From NCBI GenBank assembly GCA_965215015.1, contig OZ244042.1:2400001-2464000 (forward strand): 64,000 nt of DNA, written 5' to 3'. This DNA is from Candidatus Poribacteria bacterium. Lineage in GTDB: Bacteria > Poribacteria > WGA-4E > PCPOR2b. The notes under the pieces are model-generated. The model saw only the letters and a program-made list of their open reading frames with translations, was not told the DNA's origin and made no database searches. Position 1 is the stretch's first letter; every line of letters starts with the position of its first letter. The position numbers and the translations under genes are program-made. This document shows, in pieces, positions 503 to 41,488 of this stretch.

Positions 503-1234
503 ATGAGAAAACTGGTTTTATTTGATATTGATGGGACCATACTAAGCACAGGGGGGATTGGCGGTCGATCGCTCTACCAAGCAATCGAGGAGGTCTGCCA
601 CGAAAAGCAGATGTTCGGCGACAATCCAACACCCGAACTTGGACGGGTACGGATGTCGGGGGGGATGGACACGCAGATTGTACATGACATCTTGGAAGGT
701 GTGCTTCCCGAAAGCACCGTCCAGCAACTACTGCCTGATATTTTTGACCGTATCGCTAAACTGTTGAGAGAAGGCTGCAAAGCGGAAGGTGCAAATGTGA
801 GGTTGTTGGACGGTGTACAAGAATTGATTTTAGCGGTGATGGACCATGAGGCGTGCTTGCCTGGCCTTTTGACTGGTAATAATAAGGGCGGTGCGGCTGC
901 GAAGTTGGACGTTTTTAATTTAAACCCCTTTTTCCAGCTGGGTGCATTTGGCGACGACGCACGATCCCGTAATGCGCTGCCGGCTATCGCCGCGTGTCGT
1001 GCTTTTGAACAGACGGGCGAAAGGTTCACCGGAAAAGGCATCGTGATTATTGGAGATACACCCCGTGATATTGAGTGCGCTCGCTACGCGGGAGCCTATG
1101 CCATCGCTGTGGCTACAGGTCAATATTCTCGTGAAGAGCTAACACCATATCAACCGGATGCCCTCTTTGACGATTTGAGCGATACCCAAAGCGTGATGCA
1201 GGTGATTTTGTCGGCGAATGACGTTCAGGCGTAA
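503..1234 (+). CDS. HAD-superfamily hydrolase (phosphoglycolate phosphatase-like)
   Basis: LFDIDGT motif I and IGDTPRD motif IV. Confidence 0.9.
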   Translation: MRKLVLFDIDGTILSTGGIGGRSLYQAIEEVCHEKQMFGDNPTPELGRVRMSGGMDTQIVHDILEGVLPESTVQQLLPDIFDRIAKLLREGCKAEGANVRLLDGVQELILAVMDHEACLPGLLTGNNKGGAAAKLDVFNLNPFFQLGAFGDDARSRNALPAIAACRAFEQTGERFTGKGIVIIGDTPRDIECARYAGAYAIAVATGQYSREELTPYQPDALFDDLSDTQSVMQVILSANDVQA

Positions 1235-1950
1235 TCTTCAGCGTTGTCCTCAGGGGCATAGCCTATCTCTTTTCGGGCATTCTCAATATTCCAGTAGGCG
1301 CGTGTATTATTCGAGATACCGTAGTAGATACCAAACTTCACCGACACTGCCTCAATGCTCCGTTTGGTCAACTGCACCATATCTCGGTGGCTTAACCAGG
1401 TGGACAGGATCCGATCGCTTGTCCGGTTCTGCACCGACTCCACCGGTTGAAATGTGCCAATCCGTAAGCAGTGCACCGACAGCCCGAATTCATCGACATA
1501 GTATCTGCCCAATGCTTCACCGTAGGCTTTGCTAGCACCGTAGTGGCTATCAGGTCGTACCGGCATTTCGGGCGTTGTATAAACGCCCTCTATTTCATAG
1601 AATCCGGTTACATGGTTGGTGCTGGCAAAAATCACTTGAGGTGTGCCGGTTCGATGGGAGGCTTCGTAGATGCAATAGGTACCTAGGATGTTGTTTTCGT
1701 AGACCGATTCAAACGATGCGCCGACTTCCGGATCCCCAGCCATGTGAACGACCGAATCCACGCCCTCTACAACCTCCACCATTTTGTCGAGATCCTTGAT
1801 GCTTGCCACATAGACCTCTTCTCCCGCCGCTGCCGGAAAAACAGTCCTGTGATAGAGGAGTCGCAAATCATAATCATCTTTCAGTCCATCTCGCAGCACC
1901 CGTCCGATTTTGCCCGCCGCGCCCGTGATAAGTACCTTCTTCCGTTTCAT
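1225..1950 (-). CDS. NAD-dependent epimerase/dehydrogenase, uronate dehydrogenase-like
   Basis: TGAAGKIG Rossmann motif, ASTNHVTGFY, YGASK catalytic motif and LSTWLSHRD, all typical of Udh-like extended SDRs. Confidence 0.8.
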   Translation of the reverse strand: MKRKKVLITGAAGKIGRVLRDGLKDDYDLRLLYHRTVFPAAAGEEVYVASIKDLDKMVEVVEGVDSVVHMAGDPEVGASFESVYENNILGTYCIYEASHRTGTPQVIFASTNHVTGFYEIEGVYTTPEMPVRPDSHYGASKAYGEALGRYYVDEFGLSVHCLRIGTFQPVESVQNRTSDRILSTWLSHRDMVQLTKRSIEAVSVKFGIYYGISNNTRAYWNIENARKEIGYAPEDNAEDYA

Positions 1951-37564: not shown

Positions 37565-38029
37565 ATGAAAGCTGCGAAGTCTGTTGAGACCACAGGTCCG
37601 GTTGCTAGGAATAAGAAAGCGCGGTACGATTATCACTTGATGGATCGTTTCGAGGCTGGGCTGGTGCTTCAGGGAACGGAAGTGAAGGCGATTCGTGCGG
37701 GTAGGATGAATTTGACCGATAGCTACGCTCGCGTTGAGGCAGGCGAAGTTTTTTTAGTTGATGCCCACATCGGCCCTTACGAGCAAGGTAGTCGAGAGAA
37801 TCATGAGCCGAAGCGCAAACGGAAACTCCTGCTGAACCATCGCGAGATTAAGCGAATCGAAGGAAAAACCCGACCCACTGGCATGACGATTGTGCCGACG
37901 AAGGCTTATTTCAGTAATGGTAAAGTAAAGGTCGAAATTGCGGTGGCGCGTGGTAAACACGATTACGATAAGCGCGAAGATATGCGAAGGGAAGTAGATC
38001 AACGAGCGATCCAATCGTATATGAGATAG
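37565..38029 (+). CDS. smpB: SsrA-binding protein SmpB
   Basis: NKKARYDY, EAGLVLQGTEVK, RKRKLLL and GKHDYDKR. Confidence 0.98.
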   Translation: MKAAKSVETTGPVARNKKARYDYHLMDRFEAGLVLQGTEVKAIRAGRMNLTDSYARVEAGEVFLVDAHIGPYEQGSRENHEPKRKRKLLLNHREIKRIEGKTRPTGMTIVPTKAYFSNGKVKVEIAVARGKHDYDKREDMRREVDQRAIQSYMR

Positions 38030-38077
38030 CATCTGCATATACCGATTATAAGTGTAGGAACAAGCACAAAAACAATT

Positions 38078-38392
38078 ATGGCTTTGAAATTTCAGCGTAG
38101 AAACTGTGGCGAAGACATTGTCGTTAGGTTCTTGAAAGTTGGTGAGGCTGCCGAATGCAAAAACTGCAGGGCAAGTAATTCTGTTCCCGAATTAGCAAAA
38201 AGCATTAGTGGCGAAGGCGCAGACAATGAACCTATAGCTAAGGCATTACGCATAATCGGTAGACTACTAATAGACCTCGGGATTGTAATAGCGTTTAGTA
38301 TAATGCTTTTCTACCACTTTTGGTATACTTTGTCTAGGCGTTGGCAGGATTATCGAGTTGTTGAACCAATAAAAATAGGGAGGATTACCTAA
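38078..38392 (+). CDS. Small hypothetical protein with degenerate zinc ribbon and TM segment (possibly a relic)
   Basis: QRRNC...CKNC (first Cys lost), then a hydrophobic stretch. Confidence 0.4.
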   Translation: MALKFQRRNCGEDIVVRFLKVGEAAECKNCRASNSVPELAKSISGEGADNEPIAKALRIIGRLLIDLGIVIAFSIMLFYHFWYTLSRRWQDYRVVEPIKIGRIT

Positions 38393-38492
38393 TTAATACG
38401 GGGGTGAAAAGGTTTCGACGGAAGTAGATGATATAAAGGTTGCATGTCGAGGTCTCCGCAGGCCTCGTTAAACAGGCGGAAACAATTTAATT

Positions 38493-38522
38493 GCCGATGA
38501 AGAATTGGCTCTAGCTGCTTAA
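38493..38522 (+). other. tmRNA proteolysis tag frame (A)ADEELALAA*
   Basis: GCC GAT GAA GAA TTG GCT CTA GCT GCT TAA TAA after an AT-rich resume context. Confidence 0.9.
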
Positions 38523-38740
38523 TAAAGCGGCTCGTCCGGCTAATTTGCGGTCCCGTCGAGTTAGCCCGACGTCAACAAACGGGCTGTGCGCCTTACTTGT
38601 TCTCAAGGGGCATGGCGCGAGACATAACTTGAGATAGTCCGCGGCGAATCCGGCATAAGGGAGTCCTGTGGACGAAACACCAAAATTTATGCTAAGCATG
38701 TAGTAGCCTTTATTGAAATGCTCTCGGACGCGGGTTCGAT

Positions 38741-38974
38741 CAGTTTGGTCGACTTGGAGGGCAACCTCCTCGATTAAACCTGGCTTACATCGGTGAAATC
38801 TAAGAGATGGCGACATCTTATGGCAACACCGAGGGATTGCATGGTCCTGTAGAGACTGTAATGATAGGAGATAATGTCAGCGACAAATCTATGTCTCCTA
38901 TAACACGCTAGGCTCCATCATTTTGGTGGATGAAGATATAGTCCACGCCTCTGGGAAACCTGAGGATTAACGTG
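38741..38974 (+). ncRNA. Group I self-splicing intron (234 nt, ORF-less, P7.1 extension suggests IA-like) in the tmRNA T-loop
   Basis: P1 with U.G at the 5' splice site; R GTAGAGACTGTA (38849-38860); S AAGATATAGTCC (38933-38944); P2, P3, P4, P8, P9 and terminal G. Confidence 0.93.
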
Positions 38975-39112
38975 TCCCGCCACCTCCATCTTTTTAAGAT
39001 TTTGGTACATTGGATCATTCGTTCATTGAAATGTTGTCCCATGCACATTTTTATTCGTTTATTGATTGAATTGATGCAGGGTATACATTATTTATCGTAA
39101 TTTATCGTATCG

Positions 39113-41488
39113 ATGGAATCTCTGTGGGATAAGAAAGCAATGTCAGTGAAAATTACAGAAACGGACCTGAAAGCTGCCCTACCTGATATCACCACCACGA
39201 TGCGCTTTTCGGGACTCCACAACCCCGTTGATGTGTATCGGGACAGATGGGGCATTCCTCACATCAAGGCGGAGAACGAAAACGACCTATTTTTTGCACA
39301 AGGTTTTGCTACCGCGCAGGACCGGCTATGGCACATGGATTTTGATCGACATCGGGCACTCGGCAGATGGGCGGAGTTCGCTGGGGGTAGTGGCGTCCTT
39401 CAAGACCGGCTGTTGCGAGCGGCGGGAATGGGGCGCACCGCGAAACTCGACTACGAAATCGCTAGCCCTGAAGCGAAGGTGATGATTGATGCCTACACCG
39501 CTGGTGTGAACGCCTTCCTTGACACAGCTCAAACCCTGCCTATTGAATACACAATCCTTGACCAAATCCCTGAACGCTGGGAGAATTGGCACTGTCTCGC
39601 TGTCTACAAGATACGCAATACCCTCTTGGGAACGTTTGAACCGAAGCTTTACCGGATGCGCTTGGTAAAGGCACTCGGCCCCGATAGACTCGCTGAACTC
39701 ATGAGGGGATACCCGAGTGGTCACCTGCTCACTGTGCCGCCGGGCGAAACTTATGAAGGCCCCTCCCTTGAAGGGCTTGATGAACTGAGCGAGGCCGCTA
39801 AAGCGGCGAACTGGCTTGATGAGGTGGATGCGGGGTCAAATGGCTGGTCGATTTCCGGTGAACTGACCGAATCGGGGTTGCCACTGGTGGGGGGTGACTC
39901 GCATCGCGCCCTTGATACACCGAGCGTTTACTACCAAGTCCACCTATCGTGTCCTGAATTTACGGTTATCGGTCACGCTGTGCCGGGGATGCCGGGAGCG
40001 CTCCACTTCTGCCACAACGAGTATGTAGCGTGGGGGATGACGCATGGCGGCGCGGATACACAGGACCTCTTTATTGAACGCTTCCGTGAGGGGCCAAATA
40101 GTCGTGAGTATCTGTTCAAGGAGGAGTGGAGACCTGCGGAAGTGCTTAACGAAACAATTGAGGTGCGTGGTGCCGACGCAGTGCCGCTGGAGGTGACGAT
40201 TACCCACCACGGTCCCGTTGTCGCCGGTGATCCCGCATCGGGGATGGCCATATCAATCAGTGATCCGGGATTAATTGCCGGATCCCCGTGGGTTGATGCC
40301 GCACGCGACGCCATGCAAGCGAAGTCCGTAGATGAATTGCATGAGGCATTTCGCAACTGGACAGATCGTGTAAATAACTACGCTGTCGGTGATGTGCACG
40401 GGAATTTTGGCTACCTGCACGAGGGCAAAATCCCGATTCGGCCCGAATCAAACGGTTGGCGAGCGGTGCCGGGTTGGACGGGCGAATATGAGTGGAATGG
40501 CTACATCCCCCACGACGAACTGCCAAAAGCTATCAACCCCGACACCGATTATGTAATCACTTGCAACCAACGTGTTGCCGATTACGACTACCCCTACTAT
40601 GTGGGACTGTCTTTCACACCTGAGTATCGCGCTCGACGGGTTCAAGCGCAGATTCTTTCGCTTGAACCGGGGACCGCAACTATTGACGATATGGCGCGTA
40701 TTCACGCCGAACGAATCTCAAATCCGGCGCGTATCTTCACAGAAGCGTTAGTCCGCGTCACACCGCTTGACGAAGATTCGGCGGAAGCCCTGGGGCTGCT
40801 ACGAGCGTGGGGCTATAGCATGGATCGCGACCAAACCCAACCGTTGATTTATGCCAAGACCAAAACACATGTCATCGAATTTCTACTCGATTATCTGATG
40901 GAAGATATGGCGGAGGAGGTATTTTCAGGTGCTGCGGGAAGTGATGCCCATGTCCGGCAGATCGTAGTGGAAATGAACCTGGCACTTGAGGGGGAGCACA
41001 TCTTCTTCTTGCTACCGCCCAGATACGATTGGTCCGATGTGCTGGCTTCCGCACTCCGGCTTGCTGTTGCGGACCTCAAAGAACAGCTCGGTGATAATAT
41101 GTTCAAGTGGCAGTGGGGGGAGCTCCATCACACACACCCACAACACCCGCTTTCGGTGGTGTTTCCAGAGTTTGCCGACCTGCTAAATCCCCCGTCGATC
41201 CCGACGCATGGGGATGGCGACACACCGCTTGCTGGGAGTTATGCCCTCCACAACGAATTCATCGCCACAGGCATGTCCGTCAATCGTTATATCCACGATC
41301 CGTCAGACTGGACCAATTCACGGTGGATTGTGCCGTTGGGTGCATCAGGGCACCCCGGCAGCCCACACTATGCGGATCAGGCAGAAATGTGGGCAAACGT
41401 CGAGTATATCCCGCAACTTTGGGACTGGCAACAGATTTCGGCTGAAGCGGAATCGCAGCAACGAATCGAACCGGCAGAATCAGGGTAG
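39113..41488 (+). CDS. Penicillin acylase family Ntn-hydrolase (peptidase S45)
   Basis: RDRWGIPHI, AQDRLW, GSNGW catalytic Ser and GASGHPGSPHYADQ. Confidence 0.95.
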   Translation: MESLWDKKAMSVKITETDLKAALPDITTTMRFSGLHNPVDVYRDRWGIPHIKAENENDLFFAQGFATAQDRLWHMDFDRHRALGRWAEFAGGSGVLQDRLLRAAGMGRTAKLDYEIASPEAKVMIDAYTAGVNAFLDTAQTLPIEYTILDQIPERWENWHCLAVYKIRNTLLGTFEPKLYRMRLVKALGPDRLAELMRGYPSGHLLTVPPGETYEGPSLEGLDELSEAAKAANWLDEVDAGSNGWSISGELTESGLPLVGGDSHRALDTPSVYYQVHLSCPEFTVIGHAVPGMPGALHFCHNEYVAWGMTHGGADTQDLFIERFREGPNSREYLFKEEWRPAEVLNETIEVRGADAVPLEVTITHHGPVVAGDPASGMAISISDPGLIAGSPWVDAARDAMQAKSVDELHEAFRNWTDRVNNYAVGDVHGNFGYLHEGKIPIRPESNGWRAVPGWTGEYEWNGYIPHDELPKAINPDTDYVITCNQRVADYDYPYYVGLSFTPEYRARRVQAQILSLEPGTATIDDMARIHAERISNPARIFTEALVRVTPLDEDSAEALGLLRAWGYSMDRDQTQPLIYAKTKTHVIEFLLDYLMEDMAEEVFSGAAGSDAHVRQIVVEMNLALEGEHIFFLLPPRYDWSDVLASALRLAVADLKEQLGDNMFKWQWGELHHTHPQHPLSVVFPEFADLLNPPSIPTHGDGDTPLAGSYALHNEFIATGMSVNRYIHDPSDWTNSRWIVPLGASGHPGSPHYADQAEMWANVEYIPQLWDWQQISAEAESQQRIEPAESG

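What the first reader, a model, noticed from the sequence alone, without database searches (positions are those of the whole stretch)
38741..38974. Group I self-splicing intron inside the tmRNA T-loop
Seen: removing 38741-38974 restores the T arm GCGGG-TTCGATT-CCCGC, the Ala acceptor stem and a 355-nt tmRNA. The insert has P1 (TCGAT|CA with TGGTCGA, U38740.G38748 at the splice site), P2 GGAGG-GCAA-CCTCC, P3 CCTGGC/GCTAGG, P4 TCGGTG/CACCGA, R and S elements forming P7, a P7.1-type stem (ATAGGAGATA/TGTCTCCTAT), P8, a GAAA-capped P9, P9.0 ACG/CGT and a terminal G. It has no homing endonuclease ORF. Known: a T-loop group I intron in tmRNA was first described in Clostridium botulinum and such introns are rare, so the phenomenon is not new, but this compact intron in this lineage may be unreported and standard annotation may miss the gene. 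Inference: trans-translation here depends on ribozyme splicing and could be sensitive to GTP or Mg.
Basis: partly seen in the sequence, partly recalled or inferred. Interest (0 to 1): 0.9.

Follow-up and report, generated by a model that had tools for sequence, protein, structure and literature searches.

The report
Group I intron splitting the tmRNA gene
The only tmRNA (ribosome-rescue RNA) gene of this sponge-symbiont-type bacterium is interrupted in its T-loop by a small ribozyme-type (group I) intron, a real feature of a kind that has already been catalogued in hundreds of bacteria.

Summary
A 234-nt insert (38741-38974) splits the genome's only ssrA gene. Exon 1 is 38400-38740 and exon 2 is 38975-38988. 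Removing the insert in silico gives a 355-nt tmRNA that ARAGORN accepts, with tag ADEELALAA. The restored T arm is identical to that of 10 of 10 intron-less species of the same genus.

The insert is a group I intron:
- U-1.G wobble in P1 and a terminal G.
- Helices P1-P9, including P7.1 and P9.0, hold across 93 aligned matches: 92% of cells paired against 35-44% in slid controls, and 54 of 72 pairs change on both sides.
- P7 has the usual bulge and one covarying pair.

Rfam's Intron_gpI model scores it only 34.9 bits (cut-off 50), and ARAGORN misses the gene on genomic DNA. Mis-annotation is therefore likely.

The novelty claim does not hold. A 2025 census lists 883 unique intron-form tmRNA genes in 21 phyla, most at this same T-loop subsite.

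The lineage is Candidatus Poribacteria. The intron is in 10 of 176 sampled genomes of the phylum, is patchy within the genus, and shows a decay series of a LAGLIDADG endonuclease gene in the P7.1 loop.

Splicing itself is inferred. Metatranscriptome contigs carry the ligated junction, but intron-less relatives give the same sequence.

The parts
38400..38740 (+). ssrA exon 1 (341 nt): the acceptor 5' strand, the tag reading frame GCC..TAA at 38493-38522 (ADEELALAA), the pseudoknot region, the T-stem 5' strand and T-loop nucleotides 1-6. It ends in U38740.
   Evidence: RF00023 scores 136.3 bits. ARAGORN finds the gene on the spliced construct.
38741..38974 (+). Group I intron of 234 nt with no ORF. 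It has P1-P9 plus P7.1 and P9.0, and ends in G38974.
   Evidence: RF00028 scores 34.9 bits, E 4e-7, below the cut-off of 50. Covariation was counted on 93 aligned matches. P7 was inspected by eye.
38975..38988 (+). ssrA exon 2 (14 nt): T-loop nucleotide 7, the T-stem 3' strand, the acceptor 3' strand and discriminator A38988. CCA is not encoded; TCT follows.
   Evidence: The uninterrupted T arm and acceptor are identical in 10 of 10 intron-less species of the genus.
38736..38752 (+). P1 hairpin. The last 5 exon bases and the first 2 intron bases pair with the internal guide 38746-38752. The 5' splice-site wobble is U38740.G38748.
   Evidence: The U.G pair is kept in 78 of 85 scored rows (columns 12/96).
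38852..38857 (+). P7 5' strand, G(A)GACU with bulged A38853. It pairs with AGUCC at 38940-38944 and forms the putative guanosine-binding helix. It crosses P3, giving the usual pseudoknot.
   Evidence: The outermost pair is G-C in the poribacterial/Peptococcaceae clade and U-A in the Bacillaceae-type introns.
38864..38901 (+). P7.1 hairpin with a 20-nt loop at 38873-38892. This loop is where relatives carry a LAGLIDADG gene or its remains.
38770..38775 (+). UCGAUU, an intron-internal repeat of the 5' exon end. It can pair with the internal guide 38747-38752 and so exclude P1.
   Evidence: It is part of the MFE structure of the free intron. With it enforced the precursor energy is -90.4 kcal/mol against -89.5 with P1 enforced. 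It is present in 9 of 9 poribacterial introns and not in the other tmRNA introns of the alignment.
37565..38029 (+). smpB, the protein partner of tmRNA, 371 nt upstream of ssrA.
   Evidence: Pfam SmpB, E 4.1e-57.

Best explanation
The insert 38741-38974 is a homing-endonuclease-less group I intron of the established tmRNA-intron family. It sits between T-loop nucleotides 6 and 7 ('position 7') of the single ssrA gene of a Candidatus Poribacteria genome.

The following mechanism is inferred from the anatomy and from what is known of group I introns; it is not shown here:
1. The precursor folds so that the exon end UCGAU pairs with the internal guide GGUCGA (P1).
2. An exogenous guanosine bound in P7 attacks after U38740.
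3. The terminal G38974, positioned by P9.0, then takes the G site.
4. The freed 3'-OH of U38740 attacks after G38974 and joins the exons into a 355-nt tmRNA with an intact T arm (GCGGG-UUCGAUU-CCCGC).
5. CCA is then added, and the RNA is charged with alanine and used with SmpB.

There is no second tmRNA gene, so trans-translation in this organism requires removal of the intron.

The intron descends from a mobile element that carried a LAGLIDADG gene in the P7.1 loop. This copy has lost that gene completely.
For: Exons:
- RF00023 scores 136.3 bits and stops in the T-loop.
- ARAGORN finds a 355-nt tmRNA only after the insert is removed.
- The ligated T arm and acceptor equal the uninterrupted genes of 10 of 10 intron-less species of the genus. 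Those genes score 188-199 bits, against 117-139 bits for the 9 interrupted genes.

Intron:
- RF00028 spans the full model length, E 4e-7.
- A covariance model built from 7 poribacterial copies finds tmRNA introns of Bacillota and other phyla. It gave 93 matches at E <= 0.001 in 98 loci, and the best non-poribacterial matches scored 118-137 bits.
- On that alignment 92.2% of cells pair, against 34.7-43.5% when partners are slid by 1-3 columns. 54 of 72 pairs change on both sides, and 0 of 500 shuffles reach any of the five measures.
- P7 has its bulge and a G-C to U-A switch.

Dependence on the intron's removal:
- One tmRNA in the whole genome; the next best match is 33.9 bits and tRNA-sized.
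- No permuted tmRNA.
- Only two RF-1-domain frames, of 361 and 363 aa, so no ArfB-sized protein.
- smpB is intact.

Mobility history:
- G019 has a 638-nt intron with a 99-aa LAGLIDADG_3 frame (E 5.6e-8) that ends at a stop, with similar-looking sequence continuing in another frame.
- G030 has a 586-nt intron with no ORF. G003 has a 264-nt intron that keeps about 30 nt of the 3' end of that insert.
- Presence needs 7 changes on a smpB+exon 1 tree, at least 4 of them forced by well-supported branches.

Precedent: the Clostridium botulinum tmRNA intron (287 nt) is described as previously shown to self-splice (PMC2729099, passages).
Against: - Splicing was not shown for this genome.
- RNA contigs from 3 studies (X1, X5, X7) continue from 38740 directly into TCCCGCCACCTCC (table 7). 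These are metatranscriptomes, and intron-less relatives encode exactly that sequence, so the junction cannot be assigned to this organism.
- The same libraries hold contigs that run from exon 1 into the intron (records 8, 20 and 25). These may be precursor RNA or carried-over DNA.
- The Rfam score is below the curated cut-off (34.9 against 50).
- P9 has a U-U mismatch in this copy.
- No P10 pairing is evident.
- A helix that sequesters the internal guide is predicted to be about as stable as P1, so efficient self-splicing is not guaranteed.
- The alignment used for pair counts was fitted to the model's structure, which favours that structure.
Confidence: 0.9

Rival explanations
1. The intron is real but no longer splices, or splices poorly. 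On this reading ssrA is a pseudogene in this species and ribosome rescue runs by another route.
For: - There is a U-U mismatch in P9 of this copy.
- A competing helix can hide the internal guide.
- The endonuclease gene has been lost.
- There is no direct splicing evidence attributable to this genome.
Against: - All core helices and the J8/7-P7 segment are intact. The intron is 92-96% identical in six species of the genus (a seventh, G003, 83%), with pairing kept.
- The exons are intact and equal to functional-looking intron-less genes.
- smpB is intact.
- No ArfB-sized RF-1 protein and no other tmRNA were found.
Confidence: 0.05
2. The intron is removed in vivo only with help from a host protein, such as a chaperone or a tRNA-synthetase-like cofactor. 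It would then not be autonomously self-splicing under physiological conditions.
For: - The intron is short and has few peripheral elements.
- It encodes no maturase or endonuclease.
- A competing guide-sequestering helix is predicted.
- From general knowledge (recalled): many group I introns need protein help in vivo.
Against: - A related tmRNA intron (C. botulinum) is described as previously shown to self-splice (PMC2729099, passages).
- Two GNRA loops (P2 GCAA, P5 GCGA) and a GAAA cap on P9 could supply tertiary contacts.
Confidence: 0.05

Closest known systems
Intron-form tmRNA genes: group I intron at TpsiC-loop position 7 (Williams 2002, Clostridium botulinum; census in PMC11915505, 2025)
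   Same: - Same host gene and the same subsite, between T-loop nucleotides 6 and 7.
- U at -1 and a terminal G.
- Same helices, including P7.1, which is the main site of LAGLIDADG genes in that census (19 of 23 in the P7.1 region).
- Detectable homology: my model from the poribacterial copies scores Bacillota tmRNA introns up to 137 bits.
   Different: - The host phylum is Candidatus Poribacteria. The paper's main text names no such phylum, and its phylum table is a supplement I could not open.
- It is shorter (234 nt) than the census mean (293 nt) and than C. botulinum (287 nt).
- P2 is a 5-bp GCAA hairpin flanked by a repeat of the exon end, which the other clades lack.
tmRNA introns of Candidatus Formimonas warabiya (L133), a Peptococcaceae MAG (L076), a Bacillota MAG (L118) and an Omnitrophota MAG (L071)
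   Same: - They are the nearest relatives in my sample: a 12-row clade with 98% SH-aLRT support.
- They share the G(A)GACU/AGUCC form of P7 and an intron that starts with C or U followed by A.
   Different: - Their introns are 249-253 nt or longer.
- Their P2 is longer.
- They have no guide-mimic after P2.
- The tmRNA exons differ: T stem AGGGG/CCCCU, and CCA is encoded.
[quoted passage not shown]
   Same: - A small ribozyme inside a tRNA-like domain.
- The exon's own stem helps bring the splice sites together.
- The conserved J8/7-P7 segment AGAUAUAGUC is shared.
   Different: - The site is the T-loop of the tRNA-like domain of tmRNA, not an anticodon loop.
- P7.1 is present.

Membership tests
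Group I intron (Rfam RF00028 Intron_gpI) | U at -1 forming a wobble pair with G of the internal guide in P1 | tested here: met
   The pair is U38740.G38748. U.G is kept in 78 of 85 scored rows of the family alignment.
Group I intron (Rfam RF00028 Intron_gpI) | Terminal G (omega G) before the 3' splice site | tested here: met
   G38974 is the terminal base. All 9 poribacterial copies end in ...CGUG before UCCC.
Group I intron (Rfam RF00028 Intron_gpI) | Conserved core helices P3-P8 supported by covariation | tested here: met
   Cells paired: P3 99.4%, P4 99.8%, P5 86.5%, P6 90.7%, P8 93.4%. In these five helices 26 of 31 pairs change on both sides. The alignment was fitted to the model.
Group I intron (Rfam RF00028 Intron_gpI) | P7 guanosine-binding helix with a bulged base, crossing P3 | tested here: met
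   P7 is G(A)GACU with AGUCC, and its outer pair switches G-C to U-A between clades. The automatic count failed because the 5' strand is misaligned in A2: only 31-72% of cells paired (helices 8-10).
Group I intron (Rfam RF00028 Intron_gpI) | Score at or above Rfam's gathering cut-off (50 bits) | tested here: not met
   The window scores 34.9 bits. The 8 relatives score 30.8-37.3 bits. According to bioRxiv 10.1101/2020.01.27.920355 (passages), none of the model's 12 seed sequences is bacterial.
Group I intron (Rfam RF00028 Intron_gpI) | Guanosine- and Mg-dependent self-splicing | not testable with these tools
   This needs in vitro transcription and a splicing assay.
Intron-form tmRNA gene, T-loop position 7 (PMC11915505) | Removing the intron restores a 7-nt TpsiC loop, the T stem and the acceptor stem | tested here: met
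   ARAGORN finds the tmRNA on the spliced construct. The restored arm is identical to 10 of 10 intron-less species of the genus. The intron lies between loop nucleotides 6 and 7.
Intron-form tmRNA gene, T-loop position 7 (PMC11915505) | Homology of the intron to other tmRNA introns | tested here: met
   Model R1 gives 93 matches at E <= 0.001 in 98 loci, 84 of them outside the poribacterial loci. On the tree the intron falls in a clade with Peptococcaceae-type introns.
Intron-form tmRNA gene, T-loop position 7 (PMC11915505) | Match to the authors' tmRNA_intron covariance model, or presence in their database | not testable with these tools
The model is not in Rfam 15.
tmRNA (RF00023) | Ala-type acceptor stem with G3.U70, a tag reading frame ending in ..LAA, and smpB in the genome | tested here: met
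   The acceptor GGGGGUG/CACCUCC gives G3.U. The tag is ADEELALAA followed by two stops. SmpB matches at E 4.1e-57.
Group I subgroup IA3 (the assignment of the C. botulinum tmRNA intron is recalled, not seen in any call) | Extra helix P7.1 between P7 and P3', and other subgroup signatures | tested here: inconclusive
   P7.1 is present and covaries (96.7% of cells paired, 7 of 9 pairs change on both sides). No P7.2 is seen. I had no subgroup-specific models, and a paper search for tmRNA + IA3 + intron found nothing relevant.

The most novel reading that the evidence does not exclude
In the poribacterial clade the intron has acquired an internal copy of the 5' exon end, UCGAUU at 38770-38775. This copy competes with the real exon for the internal guide. 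P1 formation, and with it tmRNA maturation, would then be a two-state switch, set for example by temperature, Mg, co-transcriptional folding or a protein. That would give these sponge symbionts conditional control of trans-translation. Alternatively, the helix could lock the excised intron so that it cannot reverse-splice.
Probability: 0.08. Interest if true: 0.5.

Novelty: new member of a known kind. Interest (0 to 1): 0.2.

Why it matters
The practical point concerns annotation. ARAGORN misses this ssrA entirely. Rfam-based pipelines would report a tmRNA truncated in the T-loop and would not report the intron, because it scores below the cut-off. Genomes of this lineage may therefore appear to have a defective tmRNA gene or none.

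Biologically, the finding adds sponge-associated Candidatus Poribacteria to the hosts of the tmRNA intron family. It also gives a tidy within-genus series: an endonuclease-bearing but decaying copy, a remnant, a clean short intron, and empty sites. That series illustrates the gain-decay-loss cycle of homing introns in an essential-type RNA gene.

It does not open a new question. The class, its site and its spread over 21 phyla are in print.

Tried and rejected
- Promoter and terminator scan of 38000-39150. It found no terminator-like site and only one promoter-like site, on the minus strand inside the intron. This is fewer than the shuffles give, so it says nothing about the transcript ends.
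- RNA evidence. I laid 4 metatranscriptome runs from 4 studies.
  - No joint across 38741-38974 was listed in table 5.
  - The ligated sequence appears only as 13-14-nt loose ends behind 38740, in X1 (1 contig), X5 (2) and X7 (1).
  - Intron-less relatives encode the same junction, so I do not count this as proof of splicing.
  - The large excess of exon depth over intron depth sums many organisms, so I do not use it either.
  - The single listed joint (38524 to 38693, X6, one contig, side 29) is most likely another organism's tmRNA.
- P7 on alignment A2. The automatic count fails because the model did not include P7 and its 5' strand is scattered over insert columns. I inspected it directly instead.
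- G016 and G017, same genus. No tmRNA was found with RF00023 or with exon 1 as a BLAST query. I leave them as unknown, not as lacking the gene.
- Papers:
  - Poribacteria + tmRNA gave 6 papers, none about tmRNA introns by title or abstract start.
  - Poribacteria + 'group I intron' gave 1 unrelated paper.
  - The main text of PMC11915505 has no occurrence of 'Poribacteria'.
  - Its phylum table (Supplementary Table S2) and its tmRNA_intron model (Supplementary File S1) could bear on whether this lineage is already listed. I could not see them.
  - Williams 2002 (PMC99078) is not held. What I say of it comes from citing papers and from recall.
- Rejected: an assembly artefact. The same interrupted gene is present in six other single-contig genomes of the genus.

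Full report
**What is there**

The region 38400-38988 holds a tmRNA gene in two pieces.
- Rfam's tmRNA model matches 38408-38742 at 136.3 bits. The match breaks off in the T-loop and has no partner for the acceptor or the T stem.
- ARAGORN reports no tRNA or tmRNA anywhere in the 64-kb window.
- I cut 38741-38974 out in a script. ARAGORN then found a 355-nt tmRNA with a tRNA-like 5' domain, a tag frame (ADEELALAA, two stops) and a 3' domain ending ...GCGGGUUCGAUUCCCGCCACCUCCA.
- Exon 1 is therefore 38400-38740 and exon 2 is 38975-38988.
- The acceptor stem GGGGGUG/CACCUCC has G3.U. CCA is not encoded.
- smpB lies at 37565-38029.

**The insert is a group I intron**

- On the 751-nt region, Intron_gpI aligns over its full length (38731-38965) at 34.9 bits, E 4e-7. 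This is under the curated 50 bits.
- The free intron folds at -77.3 kcal/mol, z = -3.75 against 200 shuffles.

For a comparative test I aligned 7 copies from the genus (A1) and built a covariance model with the hand-drawn structure (R1). I searched 98 loci with it and obtained 93 matches at E <= 0.001. These include full-length matches to tmRNA introns of Bacillaceae, Clostridia, Peptococcaceae and an Omnitrophota MAG.

On the resulting alignment:
- 92.2% of 5911 cells form standard pairs, against 34.7-43.5% when the 3' partners are slid by 1-3 columns.
- 54 of 72 pairs show changes on both sides.
- None of 500 shuffles reaches any of the five observed measures.

The alignment is fitted to the model, which favours the structure, but the margin is large.

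P7 cannot be in a covariance model because it crosses P3, and it is misaligned in A2. Read directly, it is G(A)GACU/AGUCC in the poribacterial and Peptococcaceae-type introns and UAG(U)ACUA/UAGUCA in the Bacillaceae type. The outer pair thus switches G-C to U-A while the rest is kept.

**Boundaries**

The ligated product equals the natural uninterrupted gene. All 10 intron-less species of the genus that I fetched carry GCGGGTTCGATTCCCGC followed by CACCTCCA. Their genes score 188-199 bits with RF00023, against 117-139 bits for the 9 interrupted ones. Only one placement of the boundaries gives both U at -1 and a terminal G.

**Dependence on the intron's removal**

- The genome is one contig of 5.94 Mb, 98% complete. 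It has a single tmRNA match above the cut-off, and the next match is tRNA-sized at 33.9 bits.
- No permuted tmRNA was found.
- No other group I intron match was found at E below 0.7.
- Only two RF-1-domain frames were found, of release-factor size, so no ArfB-like rescue factor.

That trans-translation needs the intron's removal is thus a sound inference. That the removal is autocatalytic is inferred from family membership and from the C. botulinum precedent, which is described as previously shown to self-splice (PMC2729099, passages).

**RNA data**

Eighteen RNA runs share words with the stretch; they are sponge, coral and marine metatranscriptomes. I laid four runs from four studies.
- Contigs in X1, X5 and X7 continue from 38740 straight into TCCCGCCACCTCC(A). 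This is the ligated junction.
- Contigs that cover the intron also exist, at lower depth.
- These samples hold several related species, and the intron-less ones encode the same junction.

The data are therefore compatible with splicing but do not show it.

**Lineage and distribution**

Locus L141 from the pattern scan is titled as a Candidatus Poribacteria MAG. The window's organism therefore belongs to that phylum.

- The intron was found in 8 of 20 genomes of the genus (counting the window's own), in one genome of another family of the order (G030) and in one of another family of the class (G077). That is 10 of 176 sampled genomes of the phylum.
- On a tree of smpB plus exon 1 (805 columns) presence needs 7 changes, at least 4 of them forced by well-supported branches. 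G004 (with intron) and G002 (without) are close sisters.
- The poribacterial introns form one clade (98% SH-aLRT). That clade lies inside a 12-row clade (98%) with Candidatus Formimonas warabiya, a Peptococcaceae MAG, a Bacillota MAG and an Omnitrophota MAG.
Of those 119, 89 went into the model search.

**Endonuclease history**

- In G019 the P7.1 loop holds about 400 extra bases. They contain a 99-aa frame that matches LAGLIDADG_3 (E 5.6e-8) and ends at a stop, with similar-looking sequence continuing in another frame.
- G030 has about 350 extra bases with no open frame.
- G003 keeps about 30 bases that match the 3' end of the G019 insert.
- The window's copy has a 20-nt loop and no remnant.

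This matches the census statement that the endonuclease genes of tmRNA introns sit mostly in the P7.1 region (PMC11915505).

**Comparison with what is known**

PMC11915505 (2025; passages read) reports the following:
- 883 unique intron-form tmRNA sequences, all in the TpsiC loop.
- Most are at internucleotide position 7.
- They occur in 21 phyla, predominantly Bacillota.
- The mean intron length is 293 nt in the founding set, and 4.1% carry an endonuclease gene.

An earlier preprint counted 343 such genes. The window's intron is an ordinary member of this class, at the main subsite. Whether Poribacteria are among the 21 phyla is in a supplement that I could not open. Full-text searches for Poribacteria with tmRNA or with 'group I intron' found nothing on the subject.

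**One unexplained detail**

Directly after P2 the poribacterial introns repeat the exon end (UCGAUU, 38770-38775).
- It can pair with the internal guide and extends P2 by 10 bp.
- It is part of the minimum-energy structure of the free intron.
- It is about as stable as P1 in the precursor: -90.4 against -89.5 kcal/mol.
- It is present in 9 of 9 poribacterial copies and absent from the other clades.
- These copies are too alike to give covariation.

It may be a folding competitor, a post-splicing lock, or nothing.

**Verdict**

The observation and the identification are correct. The mechanism is the standard one and is inferred. Novelty is low: this is a new member of a well-catalogued kind.

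Noticed in passing
window 38743-38779: The internal guide (38747-38752) can pair with an intron-internal repeat of the exon end (38770-38775), extending P2 by 10 bp and excluding P1. The repeat is in all 9 poribacterial introns and not in the other tmRNA introns aligned. The predicted energy is about equal to the P1 state.
   Followed up: partly
L018 (G019) 1203-1499 minus strand; L019 (G030); L017 (G003): A decay series of a LAGLIDADG gene in the P7.1 loop. G019 has a 99-aa LAGLIDADG_3 frame that ends at a stop. G030 has a 350-nt insert with no ORF. G003 keeps a 30-nt remnant. The window has a clean loop.
   Followed up: yes
G016 and G017 (same genus): No tmRNA gene was found with RF00023 or with exon 1 as a BLAST query, although G017 is in 2 contigs and 96% complete. 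The cause could be an assembly gap, withheld bases or a divergent gene.
   Followed up: partly
G021, G029, G035, G047, G050, G052, G060 (same order or family): Extra matches to the tmRNA model of about 86 nt at 57-71 bits, aligned over model positions 1-374. In six of these genomes they occur beside the full gene; in G029 this was the only match over the cut-off. They look like tRNA-like-domain fragments or mini-tmRNA-like genes. I did not examine them.
   Followed up: no
window 38078-38392: A 104-aa ORF with no Pfam match fills the gap between smpB and ssrA and ends 8 nt before the tmRNA 5' end. The DNA just downstream of smpB, reaching into this ORF, is 83-88% identical in relatives of the genus.
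   Followed up: no
window 1-64000: ARAGORN finds no tRNA gene in the whole 64-kb window.
   Followed up: no
L150 (G009): About 1.7 kb of extra DNA lies between the smpB region and ssrA in this intron-less relative. I did not examine it.
   Followed up: no
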